A DNA stretch of 52,887 nt from a virus (lineage: Duplodnaviria > Caudoviricetes), in IMG/VR virus record IMGVR_UViG_3300037760_000130, positions 1-52,887 of that record; one strand, 5' to 3'. The position numbers and the translations under genes were made by a program. A model generated the notes under the pieces. That model saw only the letters and a list, made by a program, of their open reading frames with translations. It ran no database searches and had not been told where the DNA came from. The first letter of the stretch is position 1; every line of letters starts with the position of its first letter. Shown here piece by piece: positions 3,781 to 28,643 of the stretch.

Positions 3781-3990
3781 TCAGTCATCCGGCGAGGGTT
3801 CATGCCGCCCAGCCCAGTTCCGCGCCACGCCCTCGCCACCGATCGAGAGGACGCCACCGCCCGAGGCCGCCATGAAGGCGTAGATCGCGACGGTCGTGTG
3901 CTCGGGCTCCTTGAGCAGCACGCCGATCGCCAGCACGAAGGCGAGCACGATCGCGAGCACGGTCACACGGGTCCGCTGTCGGGAGTTCAC
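3781..3990 (-). CDS. Small two-TM membrane protein (holin candidate)
   Basis: GTG start overlapping upstream stop; MNSRQRTRVTVLAIVLAFVLAIGVLL...VAIYAFMAASGGGVLSIGG. Confidence 0.55.
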   Translation of the reverse strand: MNSRQRTRVTVLAIVLAFVLAIGVLLKEPEHTTVAIYAFMAASGGGVLSIGGEGVARNWAGRHEPSPDD

Positions 3991-5248: not shown

Positions 5249-5790
5249 CTCCCAAGCAGGTAGAGGGGGTCGTCAGGGTCGAGCAGCTCCCCGAGCGCGA
5301 GCAGGTAGAACGCGCACGGTGTCTGGCGCCCGGCCCGCCACGAGGCCACCGTCGTGTGGCTCACGCCGAGCGCGTGCGCGATTTCGATGTTGGCGAGGCC
5401 GGACGACTCCACCGCGACCCGGATCCGACGCGCGACGCCGCGCTCCCATGCCTCCATGTCGACCGGCTTCCACGTGCGCCCGTCCTCGGTATCGCGGTAG
5501 CCGGCGCCCTCATGTCGTTGGGCAGACAGGGCGCGAACGCACCCTCCGCAGAGGTCGGGGTCATCCAGCCCCACGAGTCCATCCAATCGCATCGTGGGCT
5601 CGAGCCCGCAGCCGGTCAGCGCAGCGTCGGCTGCCGCGAGCGCGTGAAGCTGCGAGCCCTGCCCGATCACGCACGCGGGCCAGCCCTCGTCGGTCTCGCG
5701 CGGCCGCGACGCCCAGCGCCGCAGCGCGGGATGATCAGCCAGGCGCCCGAGCGACGCCTTGAGCAGAGGTGCCACCCCGGCATCAGTCAT
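5245..5790 (-). CDS. XRE-family HTH protein with N-terminal Cys/His motif
   Basis: ATG overlaps tail gene stop; C-terminal SGLANIEIAHALGVSHTTVASWRAGRQTP HTH; N-terminal H...CG...CxxC. Confidence 0.75.
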   Translation of the reverse strand: MTDAGVAPLLKASLGRLADHPALRRWASRPRETDEGWPACVIGQGSQLHALAAADAALTGCGLEPTMRLDGLVGLDDPDLCGGCVRALSAQRHEGAGYRDTEDGRTWKPVDMEAWERGVARRIRVAVESSGLANIEIAHALGVSHTTVASWRAGRQTPCAFYLLALGELLDPDDPLYLLGR

Positions 5791-16866: not shown

Positions 16867-17544
16867 TCACGAGCCTCCGCTCAGGTCGATATCCGCAGCC
16901 GCGGGATCGCCCAGCGTGTACAGCCGGTGCCCGTCGGGCATGTCCGGATGCATCATCGCCTGGAAGGTCACGCTCTCGATGTTCTTGCCGGCGTCGCCGT
17001 GCCCGCCCCGGAACATGCGCGTCGGGCGCGGGAAATAGCCGCGCCAGAACCACACGCTCAGCCCGAGCAAGGTCTGGTGGGCCGCGTCCAGCGCTTCCCC
17101 GTCGAGCGTCCACGCGCCGCCCGCGTGGGCGAGCTCGGCGTAGGTGCCGTCCGTCTTCCGGAACAGCCCCTCGGGGAACAGGACCAGCGTGCGCTCGGAC
17201 ACGTCACGCACCCGGATATGGCCCGCGGACGCGCCGCCCGTCGGGCTCAGGACCGGGAGCAAGTCCGGGTCGGCCAAGAACAGCGGCAGCTCGATCGTCG
17301 GGTTCTCGCCGGTCGCCGTGGCCTCGTGGACCGCATCCCCGCTGATCTCGGGCAGCGTAAGGTTGGCGACGGTCCCGTTCGCGTTCACGGTGATGTCGCC
17401 CTCGGTGTCTCCGAGCTGCGCTATTTCCAGCGCGCTCGCGCCGTCCCACATGATCGGGTCGCCGTCCTCGTCGATGGCATAGTACGCGACACCACGCCCG
17501 ATGCGACGGAGGACGGCTTCGAGGTCCAGCAGATTCAGATTCAT
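16867..17544 (-). CDS. Major tail tube protein
   Basis: 225 aa, acidic; LGDTEGDITV pattern; canonical position; ends ...DLSGGS. Confidence 0.8.
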   Translation of the reverse strand: MNLNLLDLEAVLRRIGRGVAYYAIDEDGDPIMWDGASALEIAQLGDTEGDITVNANGTVANLTLPEISGDAVHEATATGENPTIELPLFLADPDLLPVLSPTGGASAGHIRVRDVSERTLVLFPEGLFRKTDGTYAELAHAGGAWTLDGEALDAAHQTLLGLSVWFWRGYFPRPTRMFRGGHGDAGKNIESVTFQAMMHPDMPDGHRLYTLGDPAAADIDLSGGS

Positions 17545-17623: not shown

Positions 17624-18034
17624 TCATGAGGATCGGCCCTCCCTGAGGGCTTGGCGGATCGGCGTATGCCGGAAGCGGGCCGCCCGGCCGTAGAAGCCGG
17701 CCCGCTCCGGCGTGGCGAGCTCGGCGCCGTCCGTGTATTCCGACCACATCCAGACGCCCTGGATCACCACGGGCAGGTCCTGGTGGAACAGCTTCCGGAG
17801 CGCCGTCTCGCTGGCAATGAGTTGATCGAGGGTCTCCGTCCATTGGTCCCACTGGATCAGGACCGGAGCCCACAGCTCGGACTCGGAGTCCGTGATGATC
17901 CGGTATTCGAGCGCGGGAACGACGTGCTCCTGGGCGGGCGCGGCCAGACGCACCGTCTCGCCGTAGATCGACGCCAGCACGGCGTTCTGTGCAGCGGCAG
18001 CCGCGATTGCCTGGACGACGTCGCCCCACCTCAT
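17624..18034 (-). CDS. Tail terminator / tail completion protein
   Basis: 136 aa between gp10-like and tail tube genes. Confidence 0.65.
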   Translation of the reverse strand: MRWGDVVQAIAAAAAQNAVLASIYGETVRLAAPAQEHVVPALEYRIITDSESELWAPVLIQWDQWTETLDQLIASETALRKLFHQDLPVVIQGVWMWSEYTDGAELATPERAGFYGRAARFRHTPIRQALREGRSS

Positions 18035-18510
18035 AGCGCCCGCTCCAGGATTTCCTCGATGATCGGATCCACGCGTTCGGCGGTCGGCGCCATGTACGGA
18101 CGTGCCCAGATGATGACCCCGCGGCTGTCGGCGCCCCCGTACTCGAGGCGGCGCGCATAGGCGGGGCTTTCCTGGCCGCCGGATGTGACCCCGAGCCCGG
18201 TGCCGACCTCAGCCTCGATCGTCGTGCGGTCGCGCCACTTGGGCTCGGTATGGCCCACGGAGTTACGCAGTGCGCCGAACAGCACGGCCGGAGGCTCACC
18301 GGGCGCGGATGCGACGTGCAGATTGCCGGCCCGGCTGACCCGGTACGTCCGCCCGCTGCGCTTGCCCGTGAGCGTCTTCTTCAGCTCGGACTCGAAGCGC
18401 AGGACCGAGCGCTTCATCGCGAGCGCGGCCTTGGGCCTCAGCTCTTCGATGGTCTCGTCCATCATGCCGTCGAGGCCTTCCCATTCGTCGCCCGAGCGGA
18501 ACCGGATCAT
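18031..18510 (-). CDS. HK97 gp10-like neck/tail component
   Basis: MIRFRSG...HVASAPGEPPAVLFGALRNSV...YARRLEYG...RPYMAP motifs. Confidence 0.8.
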   Translation of the reverse strand: MIRFRSGDEWEGLDGMMDETIEELRPKAALAMKRSVLRFESELKKTLTGKRSGRTYRVSRAGNLHVASAPGEPPAVLFGALRNSVGHTEPKWRDRTTIEAEVGTGLGVTSGGQESPAYARRLEYGGADSRGVIIWARPYMAPTAERVDPIIEEILERAL

Positions 18511-18863
18511 GACCCCAGCTCCGGCAGCTTCCCATGGAACTCGGTGCAACGCGCCTCGACGTGGTGGCCGCGCGGCTTCGAGGACGATTCTACTTCGAGC
18601 GTCGCGGGCGCATCCGGACCAGATATCAGCTCGACGACGTCGCGCTGCTCGAGCGTCACGGCGGGCAGGAAGTACACCGTGCGCTCTCCGCTCGGCACGA
18701 GCCCGGGCCCGGCGTCCGACAGCACCGCCCTCATGCGCTTGAGCGTGCAGGGCACGGAGTCGTATACGGGGGCGCGGTCGTGTACCGTCTCGCGGTGGTC
18801 GCCCAAGGTCTCGTCGAGACGCCAGACGCGGGCCTGGTGATCGAGTAGCGAGGCGAACGACAT
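18507..18863 (-). CDS. Head-closure / head-tail adaptor protein
   Basis: MSFASLLDHQARVWR...HHVEARC; 118 aa; canonical position. Confidence 0.7.
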   Translation of the reverse strand: MSFASLLDHQARVWRLDETLGDHRETVHDRAPVYDSVPCTLKRMRAVLSDAGPGLVPSGERTVYFLPAVTLEQRDVVELISGPDAPATLEVESSSKPRGHHVEARCTEFHGKLPELGS

Positions 18864-19420
18864 CAGATGCGCCCTCGCTTCCAGCGGGCCCGCACGGAGC
18901 TCCACATGCGGGACGCGCCGGCCAGTTCGCCGATGTCGGCCAGCGTGTACGCGTAGTCGCCGATCCGCTCGCTCTTGATGCCCGCCATGTCCCCGCTGCG
19001 GGCACGCCACGCCGCGGCGACCAGATCGAGCACGACCTGCTGGATGTCGCCCGGCACCTCGTCGAATCCCTCGTCGTAGGTCGCCCGGTAGTTGCGCTTG
19101 CCTGGCGTCCACCACGGGGGGGAGCGCGCGTACAGGCCGCGCCCGTCGAGCTCGTAGGCGCTCGCTTCGATCGTGTCCCAGTCGCCGGCTGCAGTGCCGC
19201 GCACCTCGACTGCGACCGCATCGACCGGCGGCTGACGCAGATACAGTGCGTGCTCGCCGGTCCCGTCCAGCACCTCGACCTTGGCCCTGGGCTCCCGGAA
19301 GTACCAGTCGAGGTCGTGCTCGACGAACTCCGAAACCCGATCAAGCAGCGCCTGCAGGTCCGAGTCGTGCTCGTCGTCCTCGATCTTGAGCCACGCCTTG
19401 GCTGTCGCGAGCGGGATCAT
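18863..19420 (-). CDS. Head-tail connector protein (gp6-like)
   Basis: LATAKAWLKIEDDEHDSDLQALL...VPGDIQQVVL...KSERIGDYAYT. Confidence 0.85.
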   Translation of the reverse strand: MIPLATAKAWLKIEDDEHDSDLQALLDRVSEFVEHDLDWYFREPRAKVEVLDGTGEHALYLRQPPVDAVAVEVRGTAAGDWDTIEASAYELDGRGLYARSPPWWTPGKRNYRATYDEGFDEVPGDIQQVVLDLVAAAWRARSGDMAGIKSERIGDYAYTLADIGELAGASRMWSSVRARWKRGRI

Positions 19421-19707
19421 GGGTCGAGCTCCCGGAGCAGGGTCCGCACGTCCCCTACGGTGTAGCCGGTCGCCCCGCTCGGGGTAAGCAAACTGTCGGC
19501 GAATTCCGTGCGTGACAGCCCCTCGGCGCGCGCCAGGTCCTCAGCCCGCGGGCTGGCGAACGCGACGCCGTACAGCGGATCGTTGGCTGCGGAGGCGGCG
19601 GCGGCCTGGGCCTCTTCACGGGCGCGCTGCTGGAACGCCTGGACGTCTGCGTTCCATGCGCGCGTCTTCTTGCCCGCCGCCGCCAGCTTCCGCAACCAGT
19701 ACGACAC
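19417..19707 (-). CDS. Small protein with E3-binding (PSBD)-like domain
   Basis: FASPRAEDLARAEGL...PSGATGYTVGDVR resembles the ASPxARxLAxExG...GxGxxITxxDV pattern. Confidence 0.55.
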   Translation of the reverse strand: MSYWLRKLAAAGKKTRAWNADVQAFQQRAREEAQAAAASAANDPLYGVAFASPRAEDLARAEGLSRTEFADSLLTPSGATGYTVGDVRTLLRELDP

Positions 19708-19711
19708 CGCG

Positions 19712-21841
19712 TCAGTCCTCCACGACCGGCGCTGCGGCGCGCTCGGCCACGGCACGCACGTCGGCCGCCGTGAAGCCGTTGACTCCGCTCGGCTCGTAGC
19801 CGTCGAAGTCAGACGCCTGCAGGGCGGCTTCTTCCGCCACCTCCTCCGCCTCGGGGCTCGCGAACGGCACACCAGCGAGCTCGTCGTCGTCCTCGAAGTC
19901 GTTGTCACCGACCTCGGCATCCTCCGGCGGCTCGGCCTTGCCCTCGGGCTCGTCGGCCTTGTCCTCGAACTCCGGGGGCTCCGGCCGGAGCATCTTGTCC
20001 TCGACCGGACGCTGCATCTTGACGCCGCCCTCGTTCGGGGTCTGGTGCGCATCCTGGTGGGCCTGCCTGCGGCGCTCGCGGTCCTCGTCGAGCTTCATGC
20101 GCCGTTCGGCTGCGGTCATCTCGAGGGCAGCCTCTTCCTGGGCCACGGCGATGCGGTTCCTGCGCTCGTGCTCCGCCTTCCTCCGTGCCCGCTCTTCGCG
20201 CAGCCGCTTGTTTCTGTTCAGCATACTGCCTCCGTTCCTCAGTTGGTTGGCGATCAGCAGCGCGTCGCCCGTGTAGCGGCGCGCGAGTCTCTTGCCCGCA
20301 GGCCGTGCCTCGTGGCGGCGGGCCTCTTCCTCGGACGCGCGGAACACGTCGCCCTCGGAGACATCGTCCGTGCCGAGCTTGAAGGCCTGCAGTGCAACCA
20401 TGAGCACCCCGGCGCCCCTGCCATTGCCGCTCGACTCGTTGCCCGCCGCGACCTGGTGCACGAGCTCCCACATCAGGTCAGGGTGCCCGCGTGCGCTCTG
20501 GAAGAGACGAAACAGGCGCCGGTTCTCGCGGCTTCCGCGGTGCGCCTTCCGGGTGCGAGGCTCGCCGTGCCACAGGTGCCAGAGATCGCCCTCGAAGCGC
20601 TCATGAGGCCCGACGAGCGTGTCCAGGATCGCGGCCAGCGCTTCGTCCTCGGCACCCCAGCCCTCGAACCGATCCGGGATCCCGCCGCTGGCCTCGTAGT
20701 CGCTCCTGCGCACGATCACGATCCCGCCGCCCGCGAAGCCCGTGTAGGCCTGACGCGACAGCCTGCCGGATACGTCCGAGCTCGCGGGATCCCGGCCAAG
20801 CACAGCGGCCGTGCTTTTCTCGTCGAGCCGCTTGACGCGCGTGTGCGGCACGACCCACGGGGCCTCGCGGGAGCGCACCAACTCGGTCGCCCGCTCGAGC
20901 TCGGAGGCCTCGACCACGCAGTCGGCGTCCGCGATCACGAGCACGTCGCCGGTCGCACGATCCAAGGCGTCGGCCACAGCCGCGCCTTTTCGCCAGGCGC
21001 CCGTCTGGGGCCCGCTTTCGACGATCTGCCACCCAGGGTGCAGGCGCCCGTAGCGCTGGCGCAGCCACGCCCAGGCCCGGTCCCGTGCGCCGCCGTCCGG
21101 GCGCCACGGCACCAGCACCGAGACGCCCCCGTGACGCCTGCGCAGCCCTTGCAGCTTCCGGCCCGTGAACGCGCTCAGCCGTTCGGACACTCGCCGCGTG
21201 TTGAAGACGCTGCCGGCGTGCTGCCGGTAGAGGAAGCACGGACGCTTGGTGGCCACGAAGCGGGCAGGCGGATCGAGCTGCGCGAAGCTGATCCAGAGCG
21301 CGGTATCCCAGCCCCCGTCCATGTCGGTCCGGTACGGTGAACGCAGCCAGTACGTACGACGGAACGGGCTCACCCCGGAGCACGGCGCCTTGGCCTTGAG
21401 CGTCTGCTCGCCGCGGTGCGACGAGTAGAGCCGGGTGCGGTTCCTCGGGCCGGCCTTGAGGTTGCCGCATCGCTCGTAGCCGAGCCCGATCACGTCCGCG
21501 TTGGGCGCCAGCTTGGCGACGTCACAGAGCATGTGCGGCATCGCCATGTCGTCGGCGTCCAGGTGCTGCACCCACTCGACCTCGCCCGCGAGCGCGACCG
21601 CCGCGTTTCTGGCCGAGCCGAAGTCGGTGAACGGGACACGCTTCGTGCGTACCCGAATGCCAGCCCTCTCGAGGATGGCCGCGGCACGCTCGATCTGCTG
21701 GGGCGTCGTGTCTGTGCTGCCGTTGTCCACGATGCAGACGAGCACCGGTGCCGTTCTGAGCGCTGCGATCGAGGTCGCCCACTCCTCGAGGTAGCGCCCG
21801 TAGTTGTGGCAGCTGGTGACGATAGCGAGGTCCAAGCTCAT
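19712..21841 (-). CDS. Tandem GT2-family glycosyltransferase fused to C-terminal charged and PSBD-like domains
   Basis: Domain 1: IVTSCHNYGRYL, IVDNGSTD, ARNAAV, HLDADD. Domain 2: VSVLVPWR, VIADADC, FEGWGAED, LWHLWH. Then charged coiled coil, acidic tract and FASPEAEEVA...GFTAADVR. Confidence 0.85.
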   Translation of the reverse strand: MSLDLAIVTSCHNYGRYLEEWATSIAALRTAPVLVCIVDNGSTDTTPQQIERAAAILERAGIRVRTKRVPFTDFGSARNAAVALAGEVEWVQHLDADDMAMPHMLCDVAKLAPNADVIGLGYERCGNLKAGPRNRTRLYSSHRGEQTLKAKAPCSGVSPFRRTYWLRSPYRTDMDGGWDTALWISFAQLDPPARFVATKRPCFLYRQHAGSVFNTRRVSERLSAFTGRKLQGLRRRHGGVSVLVPWRPDGGARDRAWAWLRQRYGRLHPGWQIVESGPQTGAWRKGAAVADALDRATGDVLVIADADCVVEASELERATELVRSREAPWVVPHTRVKRLDEKSTAAVLGRDPASSDVSGRLSRQAYTGFAGGGIVIVRRSDYEASGGIPDRFEGWGAEDEALAAILDTLVGPHERFEGDLWHLWHGEPRTRKAHRGSRENRRLFRLFQSARGHPDLMWELVHQVAAGNESSGNGRGAGVLMVALQAFKLGTDDVSEGDVFRASEEEARRHEARPAGKRLARRYTGDALLIANQLRNGGSMLNRNKRLREERARRKAEHERRNRIAVAQEEAALEMTAAERRMKLDEDRERRRQAHQDAHQTPNEGGVKMQRPVEDKMLRPEPPEFEDKADEPEGKAEPPEDAEVGDNDFEDDDELAGVPFASPEAEEVAEEAALQASDFDGYEPSGVNGFTAADVRAVAERAAAPVVED

Positions 21842-22677
21842 GCCGGCACCTTCGCGCCACGCACCAGCTCGAGGCAGCGCGCCACCACGGCGGCGGGCTG
21901 GCTCCAGCCGTGGCCCGCCACCTCGATCATCGCTCCGGTGTGGTTCGCCGCCCGGTAGTACTCCTCGATCCGGATCGGCCAGTACTCGGGGGCCTGGGGC
22001 TTGCCGTCGCCGTCCGTCGGCTGGCCCGGCGCGACTCGGCCACCGTTGGCGCCCACCAAGAGGAGCGGAGCCCCACAGAGCACCGCCAGGTGCGCGAGGC
22101 CGGCGTCGGTCGCGATAACCAGTCGCGCCGCCCGCATCGCCTCGATCGTGGCGTCCAGGGTTCGCTCGTAGTCCCACGCGCGCTCGTCGACGCCGAGCTT
22201 GCGATAGGAGGTCTCCTTCGCACCGGCGCTGAACACACGGAGACCTTCGGCCTTCAGCGCGCCCGCTAGCGGGCGCCAGCCCGGCCAGTTCTTGGCGGGG
22301 CCGTACTCACGCTTTCGAGGGCAGATCACCACGTCCGGGGCCAGCGCGTCGCCGCGCTGGGGCTCCCACGGCTCGGGCACGAAGCGGTGCTCCTTGCGTC
22401 GTGGGTCCCGGTCGTCCGGCGTGATGAAGCGGGCCGTCGGGTAGGACTGGGACAGGCGCTTCTTCCACATCCGGACGAAGTCTTTGTCGTGGTCGTAGGT
22501 CCAGCGGCGCTCGGCGTCCTTCTTGCGGTCGACGATCAGCCGGTCACAGCTCGGGTAAAGCGCTTCCAGGCCGGGCTCGTGGCAGACGAGCACGGGGCGC
22601 TCGATCGCGGCAACGGCCGGGACGTGGTAGCGCACCATGATCCCGAACTCACCCCGGAACGGCAGCACGATCTTCAC
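21838..22677 (-). CDS. GT9-like (GT-B, heptosyltransferase-like) glycosyltransferase
   Basis: GTG start; PFRGEFG; KNWPGWRPLA; LVIATDAGLAHLAVLCGAP matches the GT9 D(S/A)GxxHLA motif. Confidence 0.75.
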   Translation of the reverse strand: MKIVLPFRGEFGIMVRYHVPAVAAIERPVLVCHEPGLEALYPSCDRLIVDRKKDAERRWTYDHDKDFVRMWKKRLSQSYPTARFITPDDRDPRRKEHRFVPEPWEPQRGDALAPDVVICPRKREYGPAKNWPGWRPLAGALKAEGLRVFSAGAKETSYRKLGVDERAWDYERTLDATIEAMRAARLVIATDAGLAHLAVLCGAPLLLVGANGGRVAPGQPTDGDGKPQAPEYWPIRIEEYYRAANHTGAMIEVAGHGWSQPAAVVARCLELVRGAKVPA

Positions 22678-23060
22678 GGTGCCACCACGCGGTAGAGAGC
22701 CCTGTGCCCGCGCCACCGCTCCTTCGCGGGGCTGATGATGCTCGCCGCCGTCACGATGCCTTCGGCGGGGTTGTCCGCCTGCAAGCGGTAGTCGAGGCCG
22801 ACCTCCTGCACGAACACCTCGATGCCCTCGAGGGCGGCCAGGTAGAGGCGGTGGCTCCCCTCGATCGCCTTGAGCGTGCGGGTGGTCGGACAGCGCACGG
22901 CACGGATCACGCACACGCCCCGGCCATTGAGTTCCCGCCGGATCGGCTCCAGCTGGTCGTCGGTGTAGTACGGCCAGTGCGGCGCCTGCACGTGGGTCGC
23001 GTCGGCCGCGCAGCGGAGCGTCGGGACCAACTCGGGCGCACGGTAGGCGGGGCGGCTCAC
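22674..23060 (-). CDS. ParB/Srx-like N-terminal domain protein
   Basis: AIEGSHRLYLA resembles the ParB-fold (I/L)DGxHR motif; GTG overlaps upstream stop. Confidence 0.55.
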   Translation of the reverse strand: MSRPAYRAPELVPTLRCAADATHVQAPHWPYYTDDQLEPIRRELNGRGVCVIRAVRCPTTRTLKAIEGSHRLYLAALEGIEVFVQEVGLDYRLQADNPAEGIVTAASIISPAKERWRGHRALYRVVAP

Positions 23061-23629
23061 TGGCCCACCTTCCGGCGGAAGTGACCGGGGCCGGGCGGGG
23101 GCGCCTTCTTCTGTACCCGCTTCCGTAGATCGGCCTCGGTCGCCTTCGTCCGAGGCTTGTAGCCCAGCCGCACCTGCTGCTCCATCCCGGCCAGCGCCTC
23201 GGAGAACGCGCCGGCCACGATGCGGAATTCCTCGAGCGTGACGTGCCGGCGAAAGTCCCGCCAATGCACATGCACCTCACCCAACGAGTGCGGGTGCTCG
23301 AGTTCGATTCTGAGCCTGCGGGGCCAGTACGTCGACTCGTGGGGCTTCGGGCTCGCCACGAGGTCCTCGGGGCCGCCCGTGGCCTTGAGAAGCGTGTCGC
23401 GGTAGGCCTGCTCGCGGTATTCGGGGTTATCGGCCAGGTAGCGGCGCACATCGGCCGCGGCAGCGTTCAGGTTGTCCACGTACTCGAAGAACTCGGGTAG
23501 GCTGAACTCCTGCCGCATGTCCCGGTGGTGGACGTGCAGGTTCTCGGCGAGGTCGACGAGCATCTGCCCCGTCTCGGGCAGGCGCTCGGGCAGCGTCCGC
23601 TCGGCGAGTACGCGCATCACGCGGCCCAT
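23057..23629 (-). CDS. Hypothetical protein with internally duplicated HVHxRDxR motif
   Basis: ENLHVHHRDMRQEFSLPEF and GEVHVHWRDFRRHVTLEEF; start 23629 or 23617. Confidence 0.7.
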   Translation of the reverse strand: MGRVMRVLAERTLPERLPETGQMLVDLAENLHVHHRDMRQEFSLPEFFEYVDNLNAAAADVRRYLADNPEYREQAYRDTLLKATGGPEDLVASPKPHESTYWPRRLRIELEHPHSLGEVHVHWRDFRRHVTLEEFRIVAGAFSEALAGMEQQVRLGYKPRTKATEADLRKRVQKKAPPPGPGHFRRKVGQ

Positions 23630-24183
23630 GCGCTCACCCCCCGGAGGAAGACGTCGGGCACTTTCGCCACCTTCTCGATGAGCCCGCGGTAGGCGCGCTC
23701 GATACGGCGGCGGTCGGCGTCCGAGCACGTCGTGGTGCGCTCCCGCCACGGGAGCCAACGCACACCGCGGCCAAGGAATCGCTCGATCGCAGCACGTCCA
23801 TCGGGGCGTCCCAGCGCCTCATAACGCACGAACAGCGTCGTCGAGGGCGCCGAGCCGTACCACGAGTCCCAGATGGCCTCGTAGCCCAGCACGTCCTCGT
23901 CGTAGAGGTCCGCAGCGGGCGGCCACGCGGCGCCGCAATTGGCGAAGTGGTTCGGCTCGTACCGATTCCGGCGCGTGCTCGCGACGGACTGCGCCACGTC
24001 GCCGAACAGAAACACGGTGTGGGTCGCGTCCGGTATGCGTGGGTTGCCCACCAGCCGGTGAGTCCCGCCCACGCCGAAGTGCTCCGGCATGGACGGGGGC
24101 GAAAACTCACCCTGTGGCAGGCCCGCGATCGAGCGCTTCAGGTACGTCTTGCCCGAGCGCGGGATGGACGCGACGAGGATCAC
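23617..24183 (-). CDS. Sulfotransferase-like P-loop protein
   Basis: GGAG RBS, GTG; ILVASIPRSGKTYL resembles the 5'-PSB loop PRSGT(T/S)xL; SVAS, LFVRYEAL and IERFLG resemble the sulfotransferase C-terminal patterns. Confidence 0.7.
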   Translation of the reverse strand: MILVASIPRSGKTYLKRSIAGLPQGEFSPPSMPEHFGVGGTHRLVGNPRIPDATHTVFLFGDVAQSVASTRRNRYEPNHFANCGAAWPPAADLYDEDVLGYEAIWDSWYGSAPSTTLFVRYEALGRPDGRAAIERFLGRGVRWLPWRERTTTCSDADRRRIERAYRGLIEKVAKVPDVFLRGVSAWAA

Positions 24184-24251: not shown

Positions 24252-25643
24252 TCAGGACGAAGCGGCGGCGGTTTCGAAGTGCGCGAACGCGGCCGGCGCG
24301 TAGATCGGGAGCGCGATCCGCTCCTCGGCCAGGATCGTCCGCATATTCTCCACCAACTGCCGATCGATGAGCCCGACCTGGATCGTGGTCTGCATCCGGT
24401 CCAGGAGCTGGGCGCCCATCTGCCAGTCGCCGACGACGATGTTGCGCTCGCCGGTCTCACGAGACTGCGCACCGACCGCCTCGACCACCCGGATTCCCCA
24501 GATGCGCGAGCCGTTGTTGTCGGTGACCACGACCCAGACGTAGCGGTCGTCCGTGCCCTTCTCGAGCACGATGGTCTCCCAGTCGAACGGGTGGATGACG
24601 GTCGCGTTCGCCTCGTAGCCGGCCACCATCACGTCGGTGATGCCCATCCGGACCACGTCGATCAGGGTGTGGTTGGAGCTGTTGTAGCGGCCGTTCGTGG
24701 CGATGTCCTGCGTGCCGGACACCGTGAGGATCCCCTCGAGGTTCGGCACGGCCCCGGACCCGTACAGGATCTGCTCCTCCTCGGAGCGCATGATCGAGTA
24801 CCGCAGCCGCCCGTCGATCAGCGAGCGCAGCTGCGCCCAGTCCTCGAGCTGCTGGTTCTGGACCGGCATCCAGCCGGCGATCGTCCTGACCGCCGCCGCC
24901 TGGAGGCTGTACTCGACGTCTTCCTCGGGCTTCTCGACGCCGTGCGCGGTCGGGGCGGCGAGCGCGCTGAAGCTCTCCTCCCGCACGTACTCGACGCTGC
25001 CCGCGCTGGTCTGGCCGGAGCCGATCACGTCGCGGATGCGGAGCCGCTCGTCGGCCGTGACATGGGCGACCCGGCTCAGCCGCTCGGGCTCGATGACGCC
25101 CGTGCCCACCGTCGGGACGGCCTTCATCTCCTTGGTGCGCATGAACTGCTCGTAGGTCTTCCGCTGGTCGCGGGTGAGCGGCACGAGCGCCTCGCCGCGC
25201 GGGCCCACGATGACGTTCTTGCCGTTCACGACGCAGGGCAGCTGCACGACGGCGTGGTGGCCTCGCGAGTAGTTGCCGGCCGCGAAGTGCTGGAACTCCT
25301 CGCTCCGGATCACCGCGTCCCCGACCGACACGTAGCCGGCCACGTCGCGGTCGCCCAGCCGCTCCTTGTGGTGGCTCCGCGAGTTGGGCATCGTCGGGTC
25401 CGGGACCTCACGCAGCCGCTCGCGCTGGGCGTTCAGCTGCTGGTACTTCATCTCGGCCTCGATGTCCTGCTGCAGCGCGTCGCCTTCCGCGCACAGAGTC
25501 TCGAAGGTCTTCCGGTCCTCCGGGTCCCAGCGCCGCTTCTTCTTGGTGTCGGGGTCGACCTCGTCGTAGAAGTCCTGGAGCTTCTTCGCCTCGTCGAGGA
25601 TCTTGTCGAGGTCCTTCTGCCGGTCTGCTACGGCGTCAGCCAT
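24252..25643 (-). CDS. Major capsid protein (HK97 fold, with N-terminal delta-domain-like region)
   Basis: N-terminal coiled coil; VEKPE, VRTIAGW, EEEQILYGSG, NLEGIL, IWGIRVVE, ILAEERIALPIYAPAAF; ends ETAAASS. Confidence 0.95.
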   Translation of the reverse strand: MADAVADRQKDLDKILDEAKKLQDFYDEVDPDTKKKRRWDPEDRKTFETLCAEGDALQQDIEAEMKYQQLNAQRERLREVPDPTMPNSRSHHKERLGDRDVAGYVSVGDAVIRSEEFQHFAAGNYSRGHHAVVQLPCVVNGKNVIVGPRGEALVPLTRDQRKTYEQFMRTKEMKAVPTVGTGVIEPERLSRVAHVTADERLRIRDVIGSGQTSAGSVEYVREESFSALAAPTAHGVEKPEEDVEYSLQAAAVRTIAGWMPVQNQQLEDWAQLRSLIDGRLRYSIMRSEEEQILYGSGAVPNLEGILTVSGTQDIATNGRYNSSNHTLIDVVRMGITDVMVAGYEANATVIHPFDWETIVLEKGTDDRYVWVVVTDNNGSRIWGIRVVEAVGAQSRETGERNIVVGDWQMGAQLLDRMQTTIQVGLIDRQLVENMRTILAEERIALPIYAPAAFAHFETAAASS

Positions 25644-26436
25644 GATGCTGCCTCCCTCGGTGGTGTGAAACGAGTGTTGCCAGCCGACGTAGCCGCAGCT
25701 GGTCGAGCATCCGGACATCGGGGGGATCGTCGGAGTCCCCCTCGCTGTCGGACTTGGGTGTGTCTTCGAACAGGCTCAGCTCCTCGGCGTCGCCCTTGAC
25801 GGCGTTGGGGCATGCGGGGCCCTCGCACTTCGCGAGCGCCTCGCTGAGCACGGACTTGAGCTCGGGGCGGACGCCCGGGCGGCAGCGCTCGATCACCGTG
25901 TCGAGCTCGGCGGTGAGGCGCTGCTTCACGGTGGCCGAATCGATCCGGGCCTCAGGGTTCATCGGGAACAGCACCAGGCTGACCTCGTGGAGCTCGATCT
26001 GCTTGAGCACCCGGATCTCGATGCCGTCCTCGTCTTCGTCCATCTCCCACTTGATCGCCCGGTAGCCGATCGACATGGAGTCCACGAACGGGCCGCCGCC
26101 CTCCTCGTCGGAACGCAGGCGGTGCATGATCTCGTCGCCGTCCGCACCGGGCACGATCCGCCACTTCGTCCAGAGGCCTTCGTCGACTTCCTTGGCGTCG
26201 ATGAGCTTGCCCACGGCGTCCCTGACGCTGAACCAGTTGTGGGAGTCCAGGAGCGGCAGCACGCGGCCCGCGGCCTTCCAGTCGCGGATCGTCTTCTTGA
26301 ACGCACCCGGCTTGATGACGTCGTCGCCTAAGTCGCGGTCCCAGGTCGAGGCGAGGCCTTCGAACGTCCTGGCCTCCTCGTCGAGCTGCTTGACCTCCAT
26401 GCGGCGGATCGCGCGGAGCTTCGTCTCGGTGCTCAT
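25636..26436 (-). CDS. HK97-family prohead protease
   Basis: FEGLASTW, DVIKPGAFKKT, LLDSH, SMSIGY, LHEVSLVLFPMNPEA. Confidence 0.95.
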   Translation of the reverse strand: MSTETKLRAIRRMEVKQLDEEARTFEGLASTWDRDLGDDVIKPGAFKKTIRDWKAAGRVLPLLDSHNWFSVRDAVGKLIDAKEVDEGLWTKWRIVPGADGDEIMHRLRSDEEGGGPFVDSMSIGYRAIKWEMDEDEDGIEIRVLKQIELHEVSLVLFPMNPEARIDSATVKQRLTAELDTVIERCRPGVRPELKSVLSEALAKCEGPACPNAVKGDAEELSLFEDTPKSDSEGDSDDPPDVRMLDQLRLRRLATLVSHHRGRQHHG

Positions 26437-28643
26437 GCAGCCTCCTCAAGCTCGAAGATTTGAGTGCAACGCTCGTTCGGGTCTGAGGGCTCCATCGAGC
26501 CGTTGCTGTACGTCTCGCCGACTTTCCGGCGCTGCCCTTCCATCTCCACGTGTTCGTCCCGAACCCTGTCGTCCTGGGACGTGAGCCACACCTTGTAGAC
26601 AGCCACTCCGGGCGTGCGCTCTTCGTAGGCCTGGAGGGATCTGGTTTGGGCCCCGTTCCAGGCCCTTGACGTCTCGGTCCGAGCCACCAGCTTGGCCCGG
26701 TCGCGGCTGAAGCCAGACGACTCGCGGATCCGCTTAACCAGGCGGCCCACGGTGTCGCCGGCATCGAGCCCGGCCTGGACCACCTCCGCGACGGCTTTGC
26801 CCGTCGTCTCGCCCATGACAGAGGCCAGGAACTCGGCTTCCGCAGCTGCGTACTCGGTGAGCCCGGCCTGGAGCAGGCTGAACGTGAGCCCGACCTGTCC
26901 GGACGCCGCACGGATCGCGGCCTTGCTGGTCTGGTGGATCAGCGGGTAGGAGATCGCCCGCATCCGGGGCACGCCCCTGGCCTTCAGCCAGCGGTCGAGC
27001 TCGATCAGCAGCGCCGCGACCAAGGCCTCGTCGATTTCCTTGGTCTCGAGACCGGCCGGGGCCGATTGCTTCAGGGTGCGCTCGGCGAGCCGTGCGATCG
27101 TGTCGCCCTGCACGGCGAGCTCGTCAGCGATGGGGCCTTCCCACGCGTCGGTGGCCTGCTTCGTCTCGCGATCGAAGCGCGCCCACACCTCGGCCTTGCT
27201 GGTTTTCACGTGGAACGCTGGGGTCCGGCCCGCGGCCTCGGCGCCTTCGTCGTCCTCGTCGGCAGCCGGCAGCGCGAACGGGTTCGCGAACTCCGCCTCG
27301 GAGCCTACGCCCTGCTCAGGCTCCATGAGCTCGGGAACGACGTCGGCTCTCGGATCGTCCACCGGATCAAGCCCGACCATTTCCCGGCGCTCGTTCAGGC
27401 TCGCGATCCGGCGCTGCCTCTCGGCGACCTCACTCATGAGCTTCAGGTCGGGCTGCAACGCCCGGACATGGGACGTGTCGAACACGACGATGCGCTTCCG
27501 GTCGCTCTCGAACGGACGGGCGCCGGTCCGGCTCGGTGCCCACAGCAGTTGCCGCGTGATCGCCTTACTGATCTGCGTCCAATCGGGCTGGATCGTGTCC
27601 TCGTAGGCCATCCGCCGCGCTTCGGGCATGTTGGACCACGGCGCGTTTTCCAGGCCGATCTGGTACTGGAGCACGACGGCCGGGACGCCGAATGTCGCAG
27701 CCACCACGGACTCGACGCGGCTCAGGATGTCGCCCGGAATCAGGTCCTTCAGCGTGAGCCCGACCTTGGTCGCGGTGCCGCCGCCCAGGAGTCCGAGCGG
27801 GCCTCCCTTGTGCTCGCGGCGGGCGTACTCGCGGAGCTGCTGCTTGAACTTGTTCCATTCGTCATCGCCCGGATCCCAATCCTTGTCGGTCTGGACGATG
27901 ACGGAGGGAAAGAGGGCGTTACGCAGGATGTCCTTCGTCGAGGCCAGCGCATGCTTGCCGAGATTCAGCCACGACAGCGCCACGTCGACCTTGCTCATGC
28001 CATGGTGCCAGTCGTCCGGGTGGGCCTCCTGGAAGAAGACCACGTCGTCGGGCCCCACCTCGAGCGTGCCAGTCGCCGTCTGGATCCGGAAGCGCCCGTA
28101 GATTCGACCGTCCGCCGCCTCGACCGTGAACTGTGAGCCCGGGAACGGCGTGAGTCGTCCGATCGAGCCGCCCCGGTTGCTGTCTTTCAGCCACAGCGTC
28201 TGGCCGTGCACGTCCAGGTGGGCGACGGTGCGCTGAATGAGCGCGCCCATGTCGAAGTCGGGCGAGGGCTCGTCGAGCAGCTGCGCAAGCGGGTGGTCCG
28301 GCAACCATTCGCCGGTCGACGTCTGGCGGCCCTCGGAGCGCATCACGATCAGCGGGGCCTCGGCGATCTTCCGCATCCGCCAGCGGATCGCGACGTAGCA
28401 GTAGGCTGAGGCCGCGAAAGCGGTGGCCCGACTCACGCGGTCGACGTCGGTTGTGCTGCCGCCGAACAGGCGGGTGATGTTCTGGAGCGACGTGTCGGGG
28501 CTGAAGAACTCGATGGTGGGATCGAGGCTCAGCGTGACGCCTTTGGACTCGGCGGGGTCAGCCGCTTTCCCGTTGCCGTTCGAACCGTTCGGCAACGGGC
28601 GGTCGGGGAAGAGCCCCAAGCGGCTTCGCAGTGCTTCCAGCAA
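26433..28643 (-). CDS. Portal protein fused to C-terminal MuF/SPP1 gp7-like head morphogenesis domain
   Basis: Portal motifs (HPLAQLLDEPSP, FGVPAVVL, SLNERREMVGLDPV); C-terminal RAKLVARTETSRA, KVWLTSQDDRVRDEH, PNERC typical of MuF. Confidence 0.85.
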   Translation of the reverse strand: MLEALRSRLGLFPDRPLPNGSNGNGKAADPAESKGVTLSLDPTIEFFSPDTSLQNITRLFGGSTTDVDRVSRATAFAASAYCYVAIRWRMRKIAEAPLIVMRSEGRQTSTGEWLPDHPLAQLLDEPSPDFDMGALIQRTVAHLDVHGQTLWLKDSNRGGSIGRLTPFPGSQFTVEAADGRIYGRFRIQTATGTLEVGPDDVVFFQEAHPDDWHHGMSKVDVALSWLNLGKHALASTKDILRNALFPSVIVQTDKDWDPGDDEWNKFKQQLREYARREHKGGPLGLLGGGTATKVGLTLKDLIPGDILSRVESVVAATFGVPAVVLQYQIGLENAPWSNMPEARRMAYEDTIQPDWTQISKAITRQLLWAPSRTGARPFESDRKRIVVFDTSHVRALQPDLKLMSEVAERQRRIASLNERREMVGLDPVDDPRADVVPELMEPEQGVGSEAEFANPFALPAADEDDEGAEAAGRTPAFHVKTSKAEVWARFDRETKQATDAWEGPIADELAVQGDTIARLAERTLKQSAPAGLETKEIDEALVAALLIELDRWLKARGVPRMRAISYPLIHQTSKAAIRAASGQVGLTFSLLQAGLTEYAAAEAEFLASVMGETTGKAVAEVVQAGLDAGDTVGRLVKRIRESSGFSRDRAKLVARTETSRAWNGAQTRSLQAYEERTPGVAVYKVWLTSQDDRVRDEHVEMEGQRRKVGETYSNGSMEPSDPNERCTQIFELEEAA

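What the first reader, a model, noticed from the sequence alone, without database searches (positions are those of the whole stretch)
19417..24183. Candidate virion glycosylation plus sulfation system inserted between capsid and head-tail connector genes
Seen: five translationally coupled genes sit inside the head operon, directly after the major capsid gene. They are a sulfotransferase-like P-loop protein (PRSGKTYL), a protein with a duplicated HVHxRDxR motif, a ParB-fold protein (IEGSHR), a GT9-like enzyme and a double-GT2 enzyme, followed by a small PSBD-like gene. Known: some mycobacteriophages (e.g. Che8) encode glycosyltransferases that O-glycosylate capsid and tail-tube subunits. Inference: this phage builds a multi-sugar glycan (three GT domains) on its particle and may sulfate it. 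I know of no described sulfated phage virion glycan, and the host here is probably not an actinobacterium.
Basis: partly seen in the sequence, partly recalled or inferred. Interest (0 to 1): 0.9.

Follow-up and report, generated by a model that had tools for sequence, protein, structure and literature searches.

The report
Phage capsid-linked glycosylation and sulfation genes
An uncultured tailed phage carries, between its capsid and head-tail connector genes, sugar-adding enzymes related to those that mycobacteriophages use to coat their particles with sugars, plus a small sulfate-adding enzyme, so its particle is probably sugar-coated and possibly sulfated, which nobody has measured.

Summary
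The window is a whole 52.9-kb viral contig. On its minus strand, seven tightly coupled genes lie between the major capsid and head-tail connector genes.

- **Sulfotransferase:** the P-loop protein belongs to an unnamed family of 334 representatives. The family profile matches solved PAPS sulfotransferases (SULT4A1, E 1e-10), with the PSB loop, catalytic His and 3'-phosphate Ser kept.
- **Glycosyltransferases:** the GT9-like and double-GT2 calls are confirmed. The two GT2 domains match mycobacteriophage Wanda gp18 (39%) and Che8 gp109 (27%).
- **Other genes:** the ParB/Srx fold and the PSBD-like domain are weakly to moderately supported. The HVH protein stays unexplained.
- **Layout:** it is not new. 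Six of eight related viral contigs, and the cultured mycobacteriophage Wanda, have a variable glycan-gene island at this site.
- **Acceptor tails:** capsid and tail-tube proteins end in ...ASS and ...GGS. Che8's capsid and tail-tube proteins, reported as glycosylated, end in ...TGS and ...DGS.

The best reading is O-glycosylation of virion proteins, possibly with sulfate added. This is inferred, not shown. The sulfotransferase is rare here (one of eight relatives), and no cultured phage matched it by tblastn. The host is unresolved.

This scan has noted similar sulfotransferase-glycosyltransferase cassettes in other phage genomes. I partly checked one, in a Salinibacter phage.

The parts
24255..25643 (-). 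Major capsid protein (HK97 type, 463 aa). It ends ...FETAAASS (tail at 24255-24272), the candidate glycan acceptor.
   Evidence: PF05065 E 8e-37; phrog_10; C-terminal comparison
23620..24183 (-). Minimal sulfotransferase-family protein P0001 (188 aa). PSB loop PRSGKT at 24145-24162, His42 at 24058-24060, Ser69 at 23977-23979.
   Evidence: Family of 334 representatives. Profile against PDB: SULT4A1 E 1e-10. 47 of 91 members hit Sulfotransfer_3. AF2 pLDDT 95.7. Foldseek top hits are SULTs at weak E.
23060..23629 (-). HVH protein P0002 (190 aa), function unknown. Duplicated HVH(H/W)RDxR motif at 23513-23536 and 23249-23272.
   Evidence: 3 homologues plus L002 and L022. Duplication test. Atlas structural lead to ParB_N- and APH-containing proteins.
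22677..23060 (-). ParB/Srx-fold-like protein P0003 (128 aa), IEGSHR at 22848-22865
   Evidence: 11 homologues. AF2 pLDDT 88.4. Foldseek top hits are Noc, free serine kinase, ParB, KorB, Srx and SbnI at weak E. Atlas features 0.95-0.96. No Pfam hit.
21841..22677 (-). GT9-like glycosyltransferase P0004 (279 aa)
   Evidence: PF01075, 27.6 bits against cut-off 22. Heptosyltransferase II E 3.9e-5 and TibC/Aah E 0.003, both under their cut-offs. Homologues in L004 (57%) and L005 (50%).
20459..21829 (-). Two GT2-type catalytic domains of P0005. Domain 1 is residues 5-215 (21197-21829, DXD at 21548-21559). Domain 2 is residues 240-461 (20459-21124, DXD at 20921-20929).
   Evidence: PF00535 E 9e-22; Glyco_transf_7C; phrog_9549 and phrog_1721. 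Wanda gp18 39%; Che8 gp109 27%.
19715..20224 (-). C-terminal extension of P0005 from Met540: basic coiled-coil region, acidic linker and first PSBD-like domain (19739-19873). A GGAGG lies 5 nt upstream of Met540, so a separate in-frame product is possible.
   Evidence: Homologous to stand-alone genes just after the MCP in L002, L005, L008 and L009. Alignment A6/A7 against PDH E2 PSBD 1w4j, E 8e-7 and 5.4e-4. Shine-Dalgarno.
19420..19707 (-). Small protein P0006 (96 aa) with the second PSBD-like domain (19435-19569)
18866..19420 (-). Head-tail connector/adaptor (end of the island)
   Evidence: PF05135; phrog_442 E 1e-30
16870..17544 (-). Tail tube protein (225 aa). It ends ...DIDLSGGS (16870-16884), the second candidate acceptor.
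   Evidence: Homologues in 4 relatives (5 loci; L005 and L015 are one contig) end GGS or SVS. Che8 major tail protein ends ...YSDGS.

Best explanation
This is a late-expressed virion-decoration island of the kind known from mycobacteriophages.

Proposed mechanism:
- The double GT2 enzyme, which is the conserved core of the island in this phage clade, and the GT9-like enzyme use host nucleotide sugars. They build a short O-linked glycan on the exposed C-terminal Ser tails of the capsid protein and the tail-tube protein.
- The small sulfotransferase then transfers sulfate from host-made PAPS to that glycan.
- The PSBD-like domains, one fused to the GT2 enzyme and one on the next small protein, are proposed to dock the enzyme onto a partner. 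That partner may be the assembling particle.
- The HVH protein and the ParB/Srx-like protein form a separate conserved two-gene module of unknown activity, possibly a phosphotransfer step.

Shown here: the gene order and coupling, the family and fold assignments, the homology to actinophage GTs, and the conserved island position.

Inferred: the virion as target, the C-terminal Ser as site, sulfation of the glycan, and the roles of PSBD, HVH and ParB-like.
For: 1. The genes are translationally coupled inside the head operon.

2. In tblastn against 13 MCP-related loci, 6 of the 8 close ones (L002-L007) have the double GT2 between MCP and connector. Their accessory genes vary: methyltransferases, GT32, GT9, an APH-like kinase and a sulfotransferase.

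3. Cultured mycobacteriophage Wanda has MCP, then GTs, a kinase and a methyltransferase, then the connector.

4. Pairwise matches:
- GT2 domain 1 to Wanda gp18, 39%, E 3e-38.
- GT2 domain 2 to Che8 gp109, 27%, E 3e-13.
- GT2 domain 2 to Corndog gp37, 29.5%.
- The L002 kinase to Wanda gp16, 45%.

5. Passages in PMC12619734 and PMC12363180 say that glycans sit at the C-termini of capsid and tail-tube subunits of Mycobacterium phages, and that Che8, Corndog and Myrna are glycosylated.

6. C-terminal tails:
- Che8 MCP ends TGS and its major tail protein ends DGS.
- In this clade, MCP ends in Ser in 7 of 9 and in Thr in 2 of 9. Tail tube ends in Ser in all five genomes where it was found, the window and four relatives.
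- Salinibacter phage 5_3 has MCP ...TAGS and gp33 ...NAGS, with a P-loop sulfotransferase-like gene and a GT2 right after the capsid gene.

7. Sulfotransferase:
- The profile of 91 family members hits SULT4A1 at E 1e-10. All 48 rows with E <= 0.05 are sulfotransferase-family entries, apart from one named only by a gene code.
- 47 of 91 members hit Sulfotransfer_3 and 32 of 91 hit Sulfotransfer_1.
- The PSB loop, His42 and Ser69 align with the SULT motifs.
- Of 10 longer family members scanned, 3 are fused to GT domains (GT9 below its cut-off, GT25, GT32) and 3 to methyltransferases.
- Sulfotransferase genes sit next to GT genes in L004 and L020.
Against: - No call shows a glycan, its location or a sulfate.
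- No homologue of Che8 gp110, which PMC12363180 calls essential, was found by blastp at E 1e-2.
- The Ser-tail rule is not clean. Wanda's MCP ends ...APSF. Distant loci L013 and L014 have GS-ended MCPs with no GT found by tblastn. In the window, 10 of 50 proteins end in Ser, 4 of them outside the virion module.
- P0001 itself hits no Pfam family at E <= 0.1.
- P0001 has Gly where at least 90% of its family has the Lys of the KTH motif. The whole family has Gly-Asp where SULTs have the 3'-phosphate Arg.
- Foldseek E-values are weak: best 2e-3, TM 0.40-0.50.
- The genome has no APS kinase, PAPS_reduct/CysD or ATP sulfurylase, so the donor must come from an unknown host.
- The sulfotransferase is in only 1 of 8 close relatives, HVH in 1 of 8 and ParB-like in 0 of 8.
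Confidence: 0.5

Rival explanations
1. The island modifies a host envelope glycan (LPS core/O-antigen, teichoic acid or capsule) during infection rather than the virion. The purpose could be to mask receptors or to stop progeny from sticking to debris.
For: - GT9 is best known from LPS heptosyltransferases.
- GT2, GT25 and GT32, and the sulfotransferase-family fusions, are typical of polysaccharide loci.
- PMC12619734 recalls that temperate-phage GTs change host serotype.
Against: - The genes sit in the late head operon, translationally coupled to structural genes. The position is conserved in 6 of 8 relatives and in Wanda.
- The closest cultured homologues are GTs of actinophages, including Che8 and Corndog, whose virions are reported glycosylated.
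- No flippase, polymerase or lipid-carrier enzyme turned up in the two 10-ORF Pfam scans of ORFs outside the island. Not every ORF was scanned.
Confidence: 0.15
2. The sulfotransferase-like protein does not sulfate the glycan. It could be inactive, it could use another donor, or it could act directly on a protein side chain (Tyr or Ser) or on a small molecule.
For: - P0001 lacks the family's Lys40, and the family lacks the Arg130 equivalent.
- It is about 100 residues shorter than solved SULTs, so the acceptor site cannot be read.
- Its PRSG(K/T)T loop also resembles tyrosylprotein sulfotransferases, which appear at E 0.1-0.9 over the loop only.
- PMC10580990 states that the role of phage sulfotransferases is unclear.
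Against: - The PSB loop, His42 and Ser69 are conserved.
- The family is repeatedly fused or adjacent to GTs.
- The protein is well folded in the model, pLDDT 95.7.
Confidence: 0.2
3. The glycosyltransferases decorate phage DNA (hypermodified bases), and the ParB-like protein is a DNA-binding partner.
For: - Phage GTs that glycosylate DNA are well known (passage in PMC12619734).
- The ParB/Srx fold is most often a DNA-associated NTP-binding domain.
Against: - No hydroxymethylase or other base-modifying enzyme was found in two Pfam scans of 10 ORFs each. These found helicase, AAA, Gp3-like, PDDEXK, Lar, Band_7 and Amidase_2.
- Two ORFs read from sequence as DNA methyltransferases (not Pfam-tested) imply ordinary bases.
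- The GT families here match actinophage GTs from Che8- and Corndog-type clusters.
Confidence: 0.04
4. HVH plus ParB/Srx-like is an independent head-module accessory pair with no role in the glycan, for example a regulator or a DNA- or packaging-associated factor. It merely lodges in the same variable slot.
For: - The pair recurs in L022 next to a SprT-like protein and a MuF/SPP1 gp7-like head gene, with no GT on that 2.7-kb fragment.
- L004 has the sulfotransferase, GT9 and GT2 without the pair.
Against: - In the window the pair is translationally coupled between the sulfotransferase and GT9.
- In L002, HVH overlaps by 4 nt an APH/Kdo-kinase-like gene that is 45% identical to Wanda gp16, inside the glycan island.
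- The best structural matches of P0003 include the small-molecule kinases SerK and SbnI.
Confidence: 0.3

Closest known systems
Mycobacteriophage virion glycosylation (Che8 gp108-110, Corndog, Myrna; Freeman et al. 2023, Cell Host Microbe). The paper is not held here. I know it only through passages in PMC12363180, PMC12619734 and PMC11256854.
   Same: - Phage-encoded GTs.
- GT2 domain 2 is homologous to Che8 gp109 (27%, E 3e-13) and Corndog gp37.
- Capsid and tail-tube proteins end in small Ser tails, as Che8's do.
   Different: - In Che8 the GT genes lie at the right genome end, not in the head operon.
- No gp110 homologue was detected here.
- Che8's GT cluster (gp108-110) shows no sulfotransferase, GT9, HVH, ParB-like or PSBD genes in the annotation of that stretch.
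- The host is unknown here.
Cluster J mycobacteriophage Wanda (NC_022067): island gp15-gp24 between major head protein gp14 and connector gp25
   Same: - The same position and logic: several GTs, a kinase and a methyltransferase.
- gp18 is 39% identical to GT2 domain 1.
- gp16 kinase is 45% identical to the kinase of relative L002.
   Different: - No sulfotransferase, HVH, ParB-like or PSBD homologue by blastp at E 1e-2.
- The GT domains are separate genes, not fused.
- The MCP ends ...APSF.
- I saw no experimental work on this island.
PAPS-dependent sulfotransferases (Sulfotransfer_1/3; solved SULT4A1 1zd1, SULT1E1, SULT2A1, StaL)
   Same: Profile homology at E 1e-10. The PSB loop, catalytic His, 3'-phosphate Ser and the strand-YE-helix-FLG segment are aligned.
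   Different: - 188 aa against about 285.
- The Arg130 equivalent is absent in the whole family.
- The Lys of KTH is absent in P0001.
- P0001 alone is below all Pfam thresholds.
Sulfotransferase-family genes of other viruses (cyanophages ACG-2014f, S-SCSM1, P-SSM7 and S-T4; Megaviridae samples; OM43 phage genomes)
   Same: The same fold by Foldseek on BFVD (E 4e-6 to 0.3). PMC10580990 says their function in phages is unclear.
   Different: - No sequence-level match of P0001 to any of 50,697 cultured phage records at E <= 0.01.
- I did not look at where those genes lie in their genomes.
ParB/Srx-fold kinases (free serine kinase SerK 5x0b/5x0k, SbnI 5uje) and ParB/Noc/KorB CTP-binding domains, sulfiredoxin
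   Same: Top Foldseek matches of the P0003 model. The (E)GSHR motif sits where ParB/Srx proteins have their phosphate-binding motif; that placement is recalled, not tested.
   Different: - E-values are only 0.026-0.3 and TM 0.34-0.40.
- No Pfam ParB_N hit.
- No DNA-binding domain.
- 128 aa only.
Salinibacter phage 5_3 (OR896302): capsid gene, then gp27 P-loop sulfotransferase-like, then gp28 GT2
   Same: - A capsid-adjacent sulfotransferase-like gene plus a GT2.
- MCP ends ...TAGS and gp33 ends ...NAGS.
- It is a cultured system.
   Different: - gp27 matches my family profile only weakly (18.8 bits, mostly the P-loop).
- gp28 reaches 23.1 bits against a cut-off of 23.3.
- The MCP is only 21.7% identical to the window's.

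Membership tests
PAPS-dependent sulfotransferase superfamily | 5'-phosphosulfate-binding loop (PKxGTT / PRSGTT type) after strand 1 | tested here: met
   PRSGKT at residues 8-13. R9, G11 and T13 are at least 90% conserved in 91 members. The loop aligns to YPKSGTS of SULT4A1.
PAPS-dependent sulfotransferase superfamily | Catalytic His of the K-T/S-H motif | tested here: met
   H42 is at least 90% conserved and aligns to KSH of 1zd1. The preceding Lys is Gly in P0001.
PAPS-dependent sulfotransferase superfamily | 3'-phosphate-binding Arg and Ser (RNxxDxxxS) | tested here: inconclusive
   Ser69 is conserved and aligned. The Arg position is Gly in the family-wide FGD motif.
PAPS-dependent sulfotransferase superfamily | Significant sequence or profile match to curated or solved members | tested here: met
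   The family profile hits SULT4A1 at E 1e-10. 47 of 91 members hit PF13469 and 32 of 91 hit PF00685 at E <= 0.1. P0001 alone: 0 Pfam families and 0 PDB sequences.
PAPS-dependent sulfotransferase superfamily | Sulfotransferase fold | tested here: inconclusive
   AF2 pLDDT 95.7. The best PDB matches are SULT2A1, SULT1E1, StaL, SULT4A1 and TPST2, but E >= 2e-3 and TM 0.40-0.50.
PAPS-dependent sulfotransferase superfamily | PAPS-dependent sulfuryl transfer | not testable with these tools
   Needs an enzyme assay.
Actinophage-type virion glycosylation system | Phage GTs homologous to those of phages with glycosylated virions | tested here: met
   Che8 gp109 27%, E 3e-13. Corndog gp37 29.5%, E 5e-7.
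Actinophage-type virion glycosylation system | Homologue of the GT reported as essential (Che8 gp110 / Corndog gp38) | tested here: not met
   No blastp hit to Che8 gp110 at E 1e-2. Corndog gp38 was not fetched.
Actinophage-type virion glycosylation system | Capsid and tail-tube subunits with C-terminal acceptor tails | tested here: met
   Window MCP ...AAASS and tail tube ...SGGS. Che8 ...TGS and ...DGS. This is sequence resemblance only.
Actinophage-type virion glycosylation system | Glycan on virion proteins | not testable with these tools
   Needs MS or glycostain.
Glycosyltransferase family 9 | Pfam PF01075 above the gathering score | tested here: met
   27.6 bits against 22, but only profile positions 105-205 of 247. 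The NCBIfam heptosyltransferase models are all far below their cut-offs.
Glycosyltransferase family 2 (two domains) | PF00535-type GT-A domains with DXD | tested here: met
   78.2 bits over 2 stretches. The second domain also hits Glyco_transf_7C (30 bits) and GT21. DADD at 95 and DAD at 305.
ParB/Srx fold | Fold match and the G-x-H/R-R phosphate-binding motif | tested here: inconclusive
   Nearly all of the top Foldseek hits are ParB/Srx proteins, but E is 0.026-0.3. IEGSHR is invariant in 12 of 12 sequences. No PF02195 hit. The profile against PDB finds nothing.
Peripheral-subunit-binding domain (E3_binding, PF02817) | Match to PF02817 or to solved PSBDs | tested here: inconclusive
   The window copies have no Pfam hit at E <= 0.05. 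A positional counterpart in L006 hits PF02817 at E 5.9e-14. A profile of 7 clade copies without L006 hits PDH E2 PSBD 1w4j at E 5.4e-4; with L006 the E-value is 8e-7.

The most novel reading that the evidence does not exclude
The slot between the capsid and connector genes in this phage clade is a fast-evolving 'particle serotype' locus, analogous to a bacterial O-antigen locus.

- It builds an O-glycan on the C-terminal Ser of capsid and tail-tube subunits.
- Different phages tailor that glycan with different groups: sulfate here and in L004, phosphate through an APH-like kinase in L002 and Wanda, and methyl groups elsewhere.
- In this phage the glycan would be sulfated. That would be the first sulfated glycoprotein of a phage particle.
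- The HVH plus ParB/Srx-like pair would be a new two-protein phosphotransferase acting on the same glycan.
- The PSBD-like domain would tether the glycosyltransferase to the assembling head.
Probability: 0.25. Interest if true: 0.8.

Novelty: new variant of a known kind. Interest (0 to 1): 0.6.

Why it matters
Glycosylation of phage particles was reported only in 2023, for mycobacteriophages. There it is said to shield particles from antibodies (passages in PMC12363180).

This finding would add three things:
- The same kind of island, at the same place as in cluster J mycobacteriophages, is the rule in an uncultured phage clade whose members span 54-71% GC.
- The gene content of the island is highly variable.
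- The island can include a sulfotransferase of an uncharacterised minimal family.

If the glycan is sulfated, that would be a new chemistry on phage particles. It would bear on how particles interact with mucus, polysaccharide matrices, antibodies or host receptors. It would also give a function to phage sulfotransferase genes, whose role is called unclear in PMC10580990.

The shared ...GS-COOH tails on capsid and tail-tube proteins in three unrelated lineages offer a simple, testable acceptor rule. The lineages are this clade, Che8 and Salinibacter phage 5_3.

Tried and rejected
Searches that led nowhere:
- Single-sequence searches of P0001, P0002 and P0003 against PDB sequences found nothing useful.
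- Profiles of the HVH family (A2) and the ParB-like family (A4) against PDB found nothing.
- An hhalign comparison of HVH against ParB-like showed no relation (probability 0.2).
- PHROGs has no family for the sulfotransferase, HVH, ParB-like, GT9-like or small PSBD proteins at E <= 0.01.
- NCBIfam gave only sub-threshold hits.
- HVH was sought in IMG/VR twice and in JGI metagenomes once, with no confirmed relative. Relatives came only through MCP-based loci (L002) and the ParB-like scan (L022).

Structural prediction of binding: complex prediction of HVH with the ParB-like protein gave 'no answer' (score 0.01, mark 0.32). It counts neither for nor against binding.

Host assignment failed:
- The one genome-contig hit (L023) is the same 58.8-kb contig as L002, binned into a 'Bacilli bacterium' MAG. 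I do not trust that as a host call.
- MCP and TerL searches of cultured phages give only distant, mixed hits.
- No tRNA genes were found.

Other negatives:
- I rejected a phage-made sulfate donor. There is no APS kinase, PAPS_reduct or ATP sulfurylase.
- I considered that HVH/ParB-like might supply PAPS. This is unlikely, because L004 has the sulfotransferase without them.
- The listing of cluster members gave no names for 10 sulfotransferase-family proteins beyond 'hypothetical' and 'TPR repeat protein'.

Literature:
- Two searches for sulfated phage particles or phage sulfotransferases with capsid or virion terms found no such report.
- Freeman et al. 2023 is not held. I know it only from passages in citing papers.
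- I asked for no supplementary files. The supplements of Freeman et al. may list GT islands of cluster J phages and acceptor sites that bear on the comparison.

Full report
**What the window is.** The window is a complete IMG/VR virus record of 52,887 bp with direct terminal repeats. CheckV estimates 64% completeness. GC content is about 68%, with no compositional break at the island. Almost all genes lie on the minus strand.

**Gene calls.** ORF listing, a GC3 frame plot and start-codon inspection give this order:
- portal (26436-28643)
- prohead protease
- major capsid protein (MCP, 24255-25643; PF05065, E 8e-37)
- P0001 (23620-24183)
- P0002 (23060-23629)
- P0003 (22677-23060)
- P0004 (21841-22677)
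- P0005 (19715-21841)
- P0006 (19420-19707)
- head-tail connector (18866-19420; PF05135, phrog_442)

**Coupling.** The junctions are 4-nt GTGA/ATGA overlaps, a 13-nt overlap, or a 4-nt spacer with a GGAGGA Shine-Dalgarno.

**The sulfotransferase claim.**
- Searched alone, P0001 hits no Pfam family, no PHROG and no PDB sequence. The word-index search found one homologue.
- A full HMMER search with a two-sequence profile found 334 representatives at E <= 1e-3, 144 of them at E <= 1e-10.
- A 91-sequence alignment of these gives a profile that hits solved PAPS sulfotransferases, with SULT4A1 at E 1e-10. All 48 rows with E <= 0.05 are sulfotransferase-family entries, apart from one named only by a gene code.
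- The alignment puts ipRcGtt on YPKSGTS, KtH on KSH, iFlFGdp...S on IYMARNP...S, and vrYEal...FLG on LKYEDM...FLG.
- Scanned one by one, 47 of 91 members hit Sulfotransfer_3 and 32 of 91 hit Sulfotransfer_1 at E <= 0.1.
- The AlphaFold model is confident (pLDDT 95.7). Its best PDB matches are SULT2A1, SULT1E1, StaL, SULT4A1 and TPST2, but at weak scores (best E 2e-3, TM 0.40-0.50).
- In BFVD it matches viral proteins annotated as sulfotransferases from cyanophages and giant-virus samples.
- Caveats: P0001 has Gly where at least 90% of its family has the Lys of KTH. The whole family lacks the Arg that binds the 3'-phosphate in SULTs.

**Link of the sulfotransferase family to glycans.**
- Of 10 longer family members scanned, 3 carry GT domains: GT9 (below its cut-off), GT25 and GT32. 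Three carry methyltransferase domains and 2 carry TPR repeats.
- In relative L004 the sulfotransferase (52% identical) lies directly upstream of the GT9 homologue.
- In an unrelated 7-kb viral contig, L020 (GC 47.6%), a 43% homologue lies between a GT-like gene and a methyltransferase, after terminase and portal genes.
- No cultured phage record matched P0001 by tblastn (0 of 50,697 at E <= 0.01).

**The glycosyltransferases.**
- P0004 passes the Pfam GT9 threshold over part of the model.
- P0005 has two GT-A domains with DXD motifs.
- Against cultured phages, P0005 matches 141 records: Mycobacterium 115, Gordonia 16, Streptomyces 7, Microbacterium 2 and Tunturiibacter 1.
- Its second half matches 134 records of the same make-up, including Che8 gp109 and Corndog gp37.
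- Pairwise: domain 1 is 39% identical to Wanda gp18 (E 3e-38). Domain 2 is 27% identical to Che8 gp109 (E 3e-13) and 26% to Wanda gp20.
- No match to Che8 gp110 was found.

**The layout is known and conserved.**
- An MCP-based scan of IMG/VR gave 13 loci, 8 of them close (55-75% MCP identity).
- tblastn and ORF reading show the double GT2 between MCP and connector in 6 of the 8 (L002-L007). L008 and L009 have instead another GT9-like gene.
- The accessory genes differ in every genome (Pfam):
  - L002: methyltransferase fused to a CTP-dependent riboflavin-kinase-like domain, GT32, HVH, an APH-like kinase and an FkbM methyltransferase.
  - L003: methyltransferases and GT32.
  - L004: sulfotransferase, GT9 and a methyltransferase.
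  - L005: methyltransferase-GT9 fusion, a methyltransferase and GT9.
  - L006: one further gene, read from sequence as a methyltransferase; Pfam gave no methyltransferase hit.
  - L007: a possible GT (no Pfam hit) and Methyltransf_24.
- Island proteins are less conserved than the MCP. In L004, for example, MCP is 72% identical and GT2 54%.
- Cultured mycobacteriophage Wanda has the same architecture. The order is major head protein gp14; then GT, kinase, methyltransferase, three GTs, a Zn protease, two hypothetical proteins and another GT; then connector gp25.
- The L002 kinase is 45% identical to Wanda gp16.
- The island is therefore a variable slot, not a one-off insertion.

**The target.**
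- Passages in PMC12619734 and PMC12363180 state that glycans sit at the C-termini of capsid and tail-tube subunits of Mycobacterium phages, and that Che8, Corndog and Myrna are glycosylated.
- Che8's MCP ends ...NKTGS and its major tail protein ends ...YSDGS.
- The window's MCP ends ...ETAAASS and its tail tube ends ...DLSGGS.
- In the clade, MCP ends in Ser in 7 of 9 and in Thr in 2 of 9. Tail tube ends GGS or SVS in all five genomes where it was found, the window and four relatives.
- Salinibacter phage 5_3, a cultured phage with a very distant MCP, has MCP ...TAGS and gp33 ...NAGS. Right after its capsid gene lie a P-loop protein that weakly matches my sulfotransferase profile (18.8 bits) and a GT2 (23.1 bits against a cut-off of 23.3).
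- Against a simple rule: Wanda's MCP ends ...APSF. L013 and L014 have GS-ended MCPs with no GT found. Ten of 50 window proteins end in Ser, against a 5.1% Ser frequency, and 4 of those lie outside the virion module.

**The other three genes.**
- HVH (P0002):
  - It has only 3 database homologues, plus copies in L002 and L022.
  - The 17-residue motif duplication is real.
  - It has no sequence-level relative in Pfam, PHROGs, NCBIfam or PDB.
  - The only lead is the ESM Atlas model. It resembles part of 343-aa ParB_N-containing proteins (TM 0.61 by query) and an 813-aa APH-containing protein (TM 0.53).
- ParB-like (P0003):
  - It has 11 homologues with invariant APHWP, IEGSHR and GIVTA motifs.
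  - Its model (pLDDT 88.4) best matches Noc, free serine kinase, ParB, KorB, sulfiredoxin and SbnI, all at weak E.
- Gene neighbourhoods:
  - HVH is followed by the ParB-like gene in the window and in L022.
  - It is followed, with a 4-nt overlap, by the APH-like kinase in L002.
  - On this basis I propose that HVH works with a phosphotransferase-like partner. This is an inference.
- PSBD-like domains:
A positional counterpart in L006 hits PF02817.
  - The C-terminal 170 residues of P0005 are homologous to a stand-alone gene that follows the MCP in L002, L005, L008 and L009.
  - L007 has the same fusion as the window.
  - A GGAGG 5 nt upstream of Met540 allows a separate in-frame product.

**What is missing.**
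- The phage has no APS kinase, PAPS_reduct/CysD or ATP sulfurylase.
- Two Pfam scans of 10 ORFs each found no base-hypermodification enzymes.
- The host is unresolved.

**Comparison and novelty.** The system works like, and is partly homologous to, actinophage virion glycosylation. It differs in five ways: a fused double GT2, a GT9-like enzyme, a minimal sulfotransferase, the HVH/ParB-like pair, and PSBD-like domains tied to the GT. I found no report of a sulfated phage particle in two full-text searches. PMC10580990 calls the role of phage sulfotransferases unclear. Earlier notes of this scan describe similar sulfotransferase-GT cassettes next to capsid or tail genes in other phage genomes. 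I partly checked one of them, the Salinibacter case.

**Verdict.** This is a new variant of a known kind. Interest is 0.6.

Noticed in passing
window 19715-20224 (minus strand): The last 170 residues of the double-GT2 ORF start at an in-frame Met540 preceded by GGAGG. They are homologous to a stand-alone gene that follows the capsid gene in relatives. This may be a nested in-frame gene giving both a fused and a free PSBD protein.
   Followed up: partly
window, C-termini of 50 called proteins: Ten of 50 proteins end in Ser, against a Ser frequency of 5.1%. Six are in the virion module: the 279-aa secreted-looking protein 3987-4826 (PGS), the 2345-aa tail protein (PSS), the tail tube (GGS), 17624-18034 (RSS), 18507-18900 (LGS) and the MCP (ASS). 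Some may be by-products of TCATGA stop/start overlaps.
   Followed up: partly
L024 (Salinibacter phage 5_3, OR896302) 5467-11357: A cultured phage whose capsid protein (...TAGS) and gp33 (...NAGS) share the same tail. A P-loop sulfotransferase-like gp27 and a GT2-like gp28 lie right after the capsid gene. It is a possible experimental proxy.
   Followed up: partly
L021 7940-10318 (IMG/VR contig, GC 33%): A tail-fibre-like protein with a very long poly-Ser tract lies directly after methyltransferase, GT9-like and large GT genes. This may be another phage protein-glycosylation cassette.
   Followed up: no
L002 12067-13071 and L003 8966-9946: A SAM methyltransferase fused to a CTP-dependent riboflavin-kinase-like domain (PF01982) inside the capsid-connector glycan island. 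The role of that domain here is unexplained.
   Followed up: no
L022 791-1216 and Wanda gp21 (L016 8238-8792): Small Zn-protease-like genes (an HExxH motif with a weak SprT-like hit in L022; annotated 'Zn-finger protease' in Wanda) recur in these head-module islands.
   Followed up: no
L023 = L002: The 58.8-kb contig of relative L002 is also deposited as part of a MAG labelled 'Bacilli bacterium'. The contig looks like a whole phage genome, so the binning is doubtful as a host clue.
   Followed up: no
ARAGORN finds no tRNA or tmRNA anywhere in the window.
   Followed up: partly
window 5787-12824: A single 2345-aa tail protein takes up 13% of the genome. I did not analyse it.
   Followed up: no
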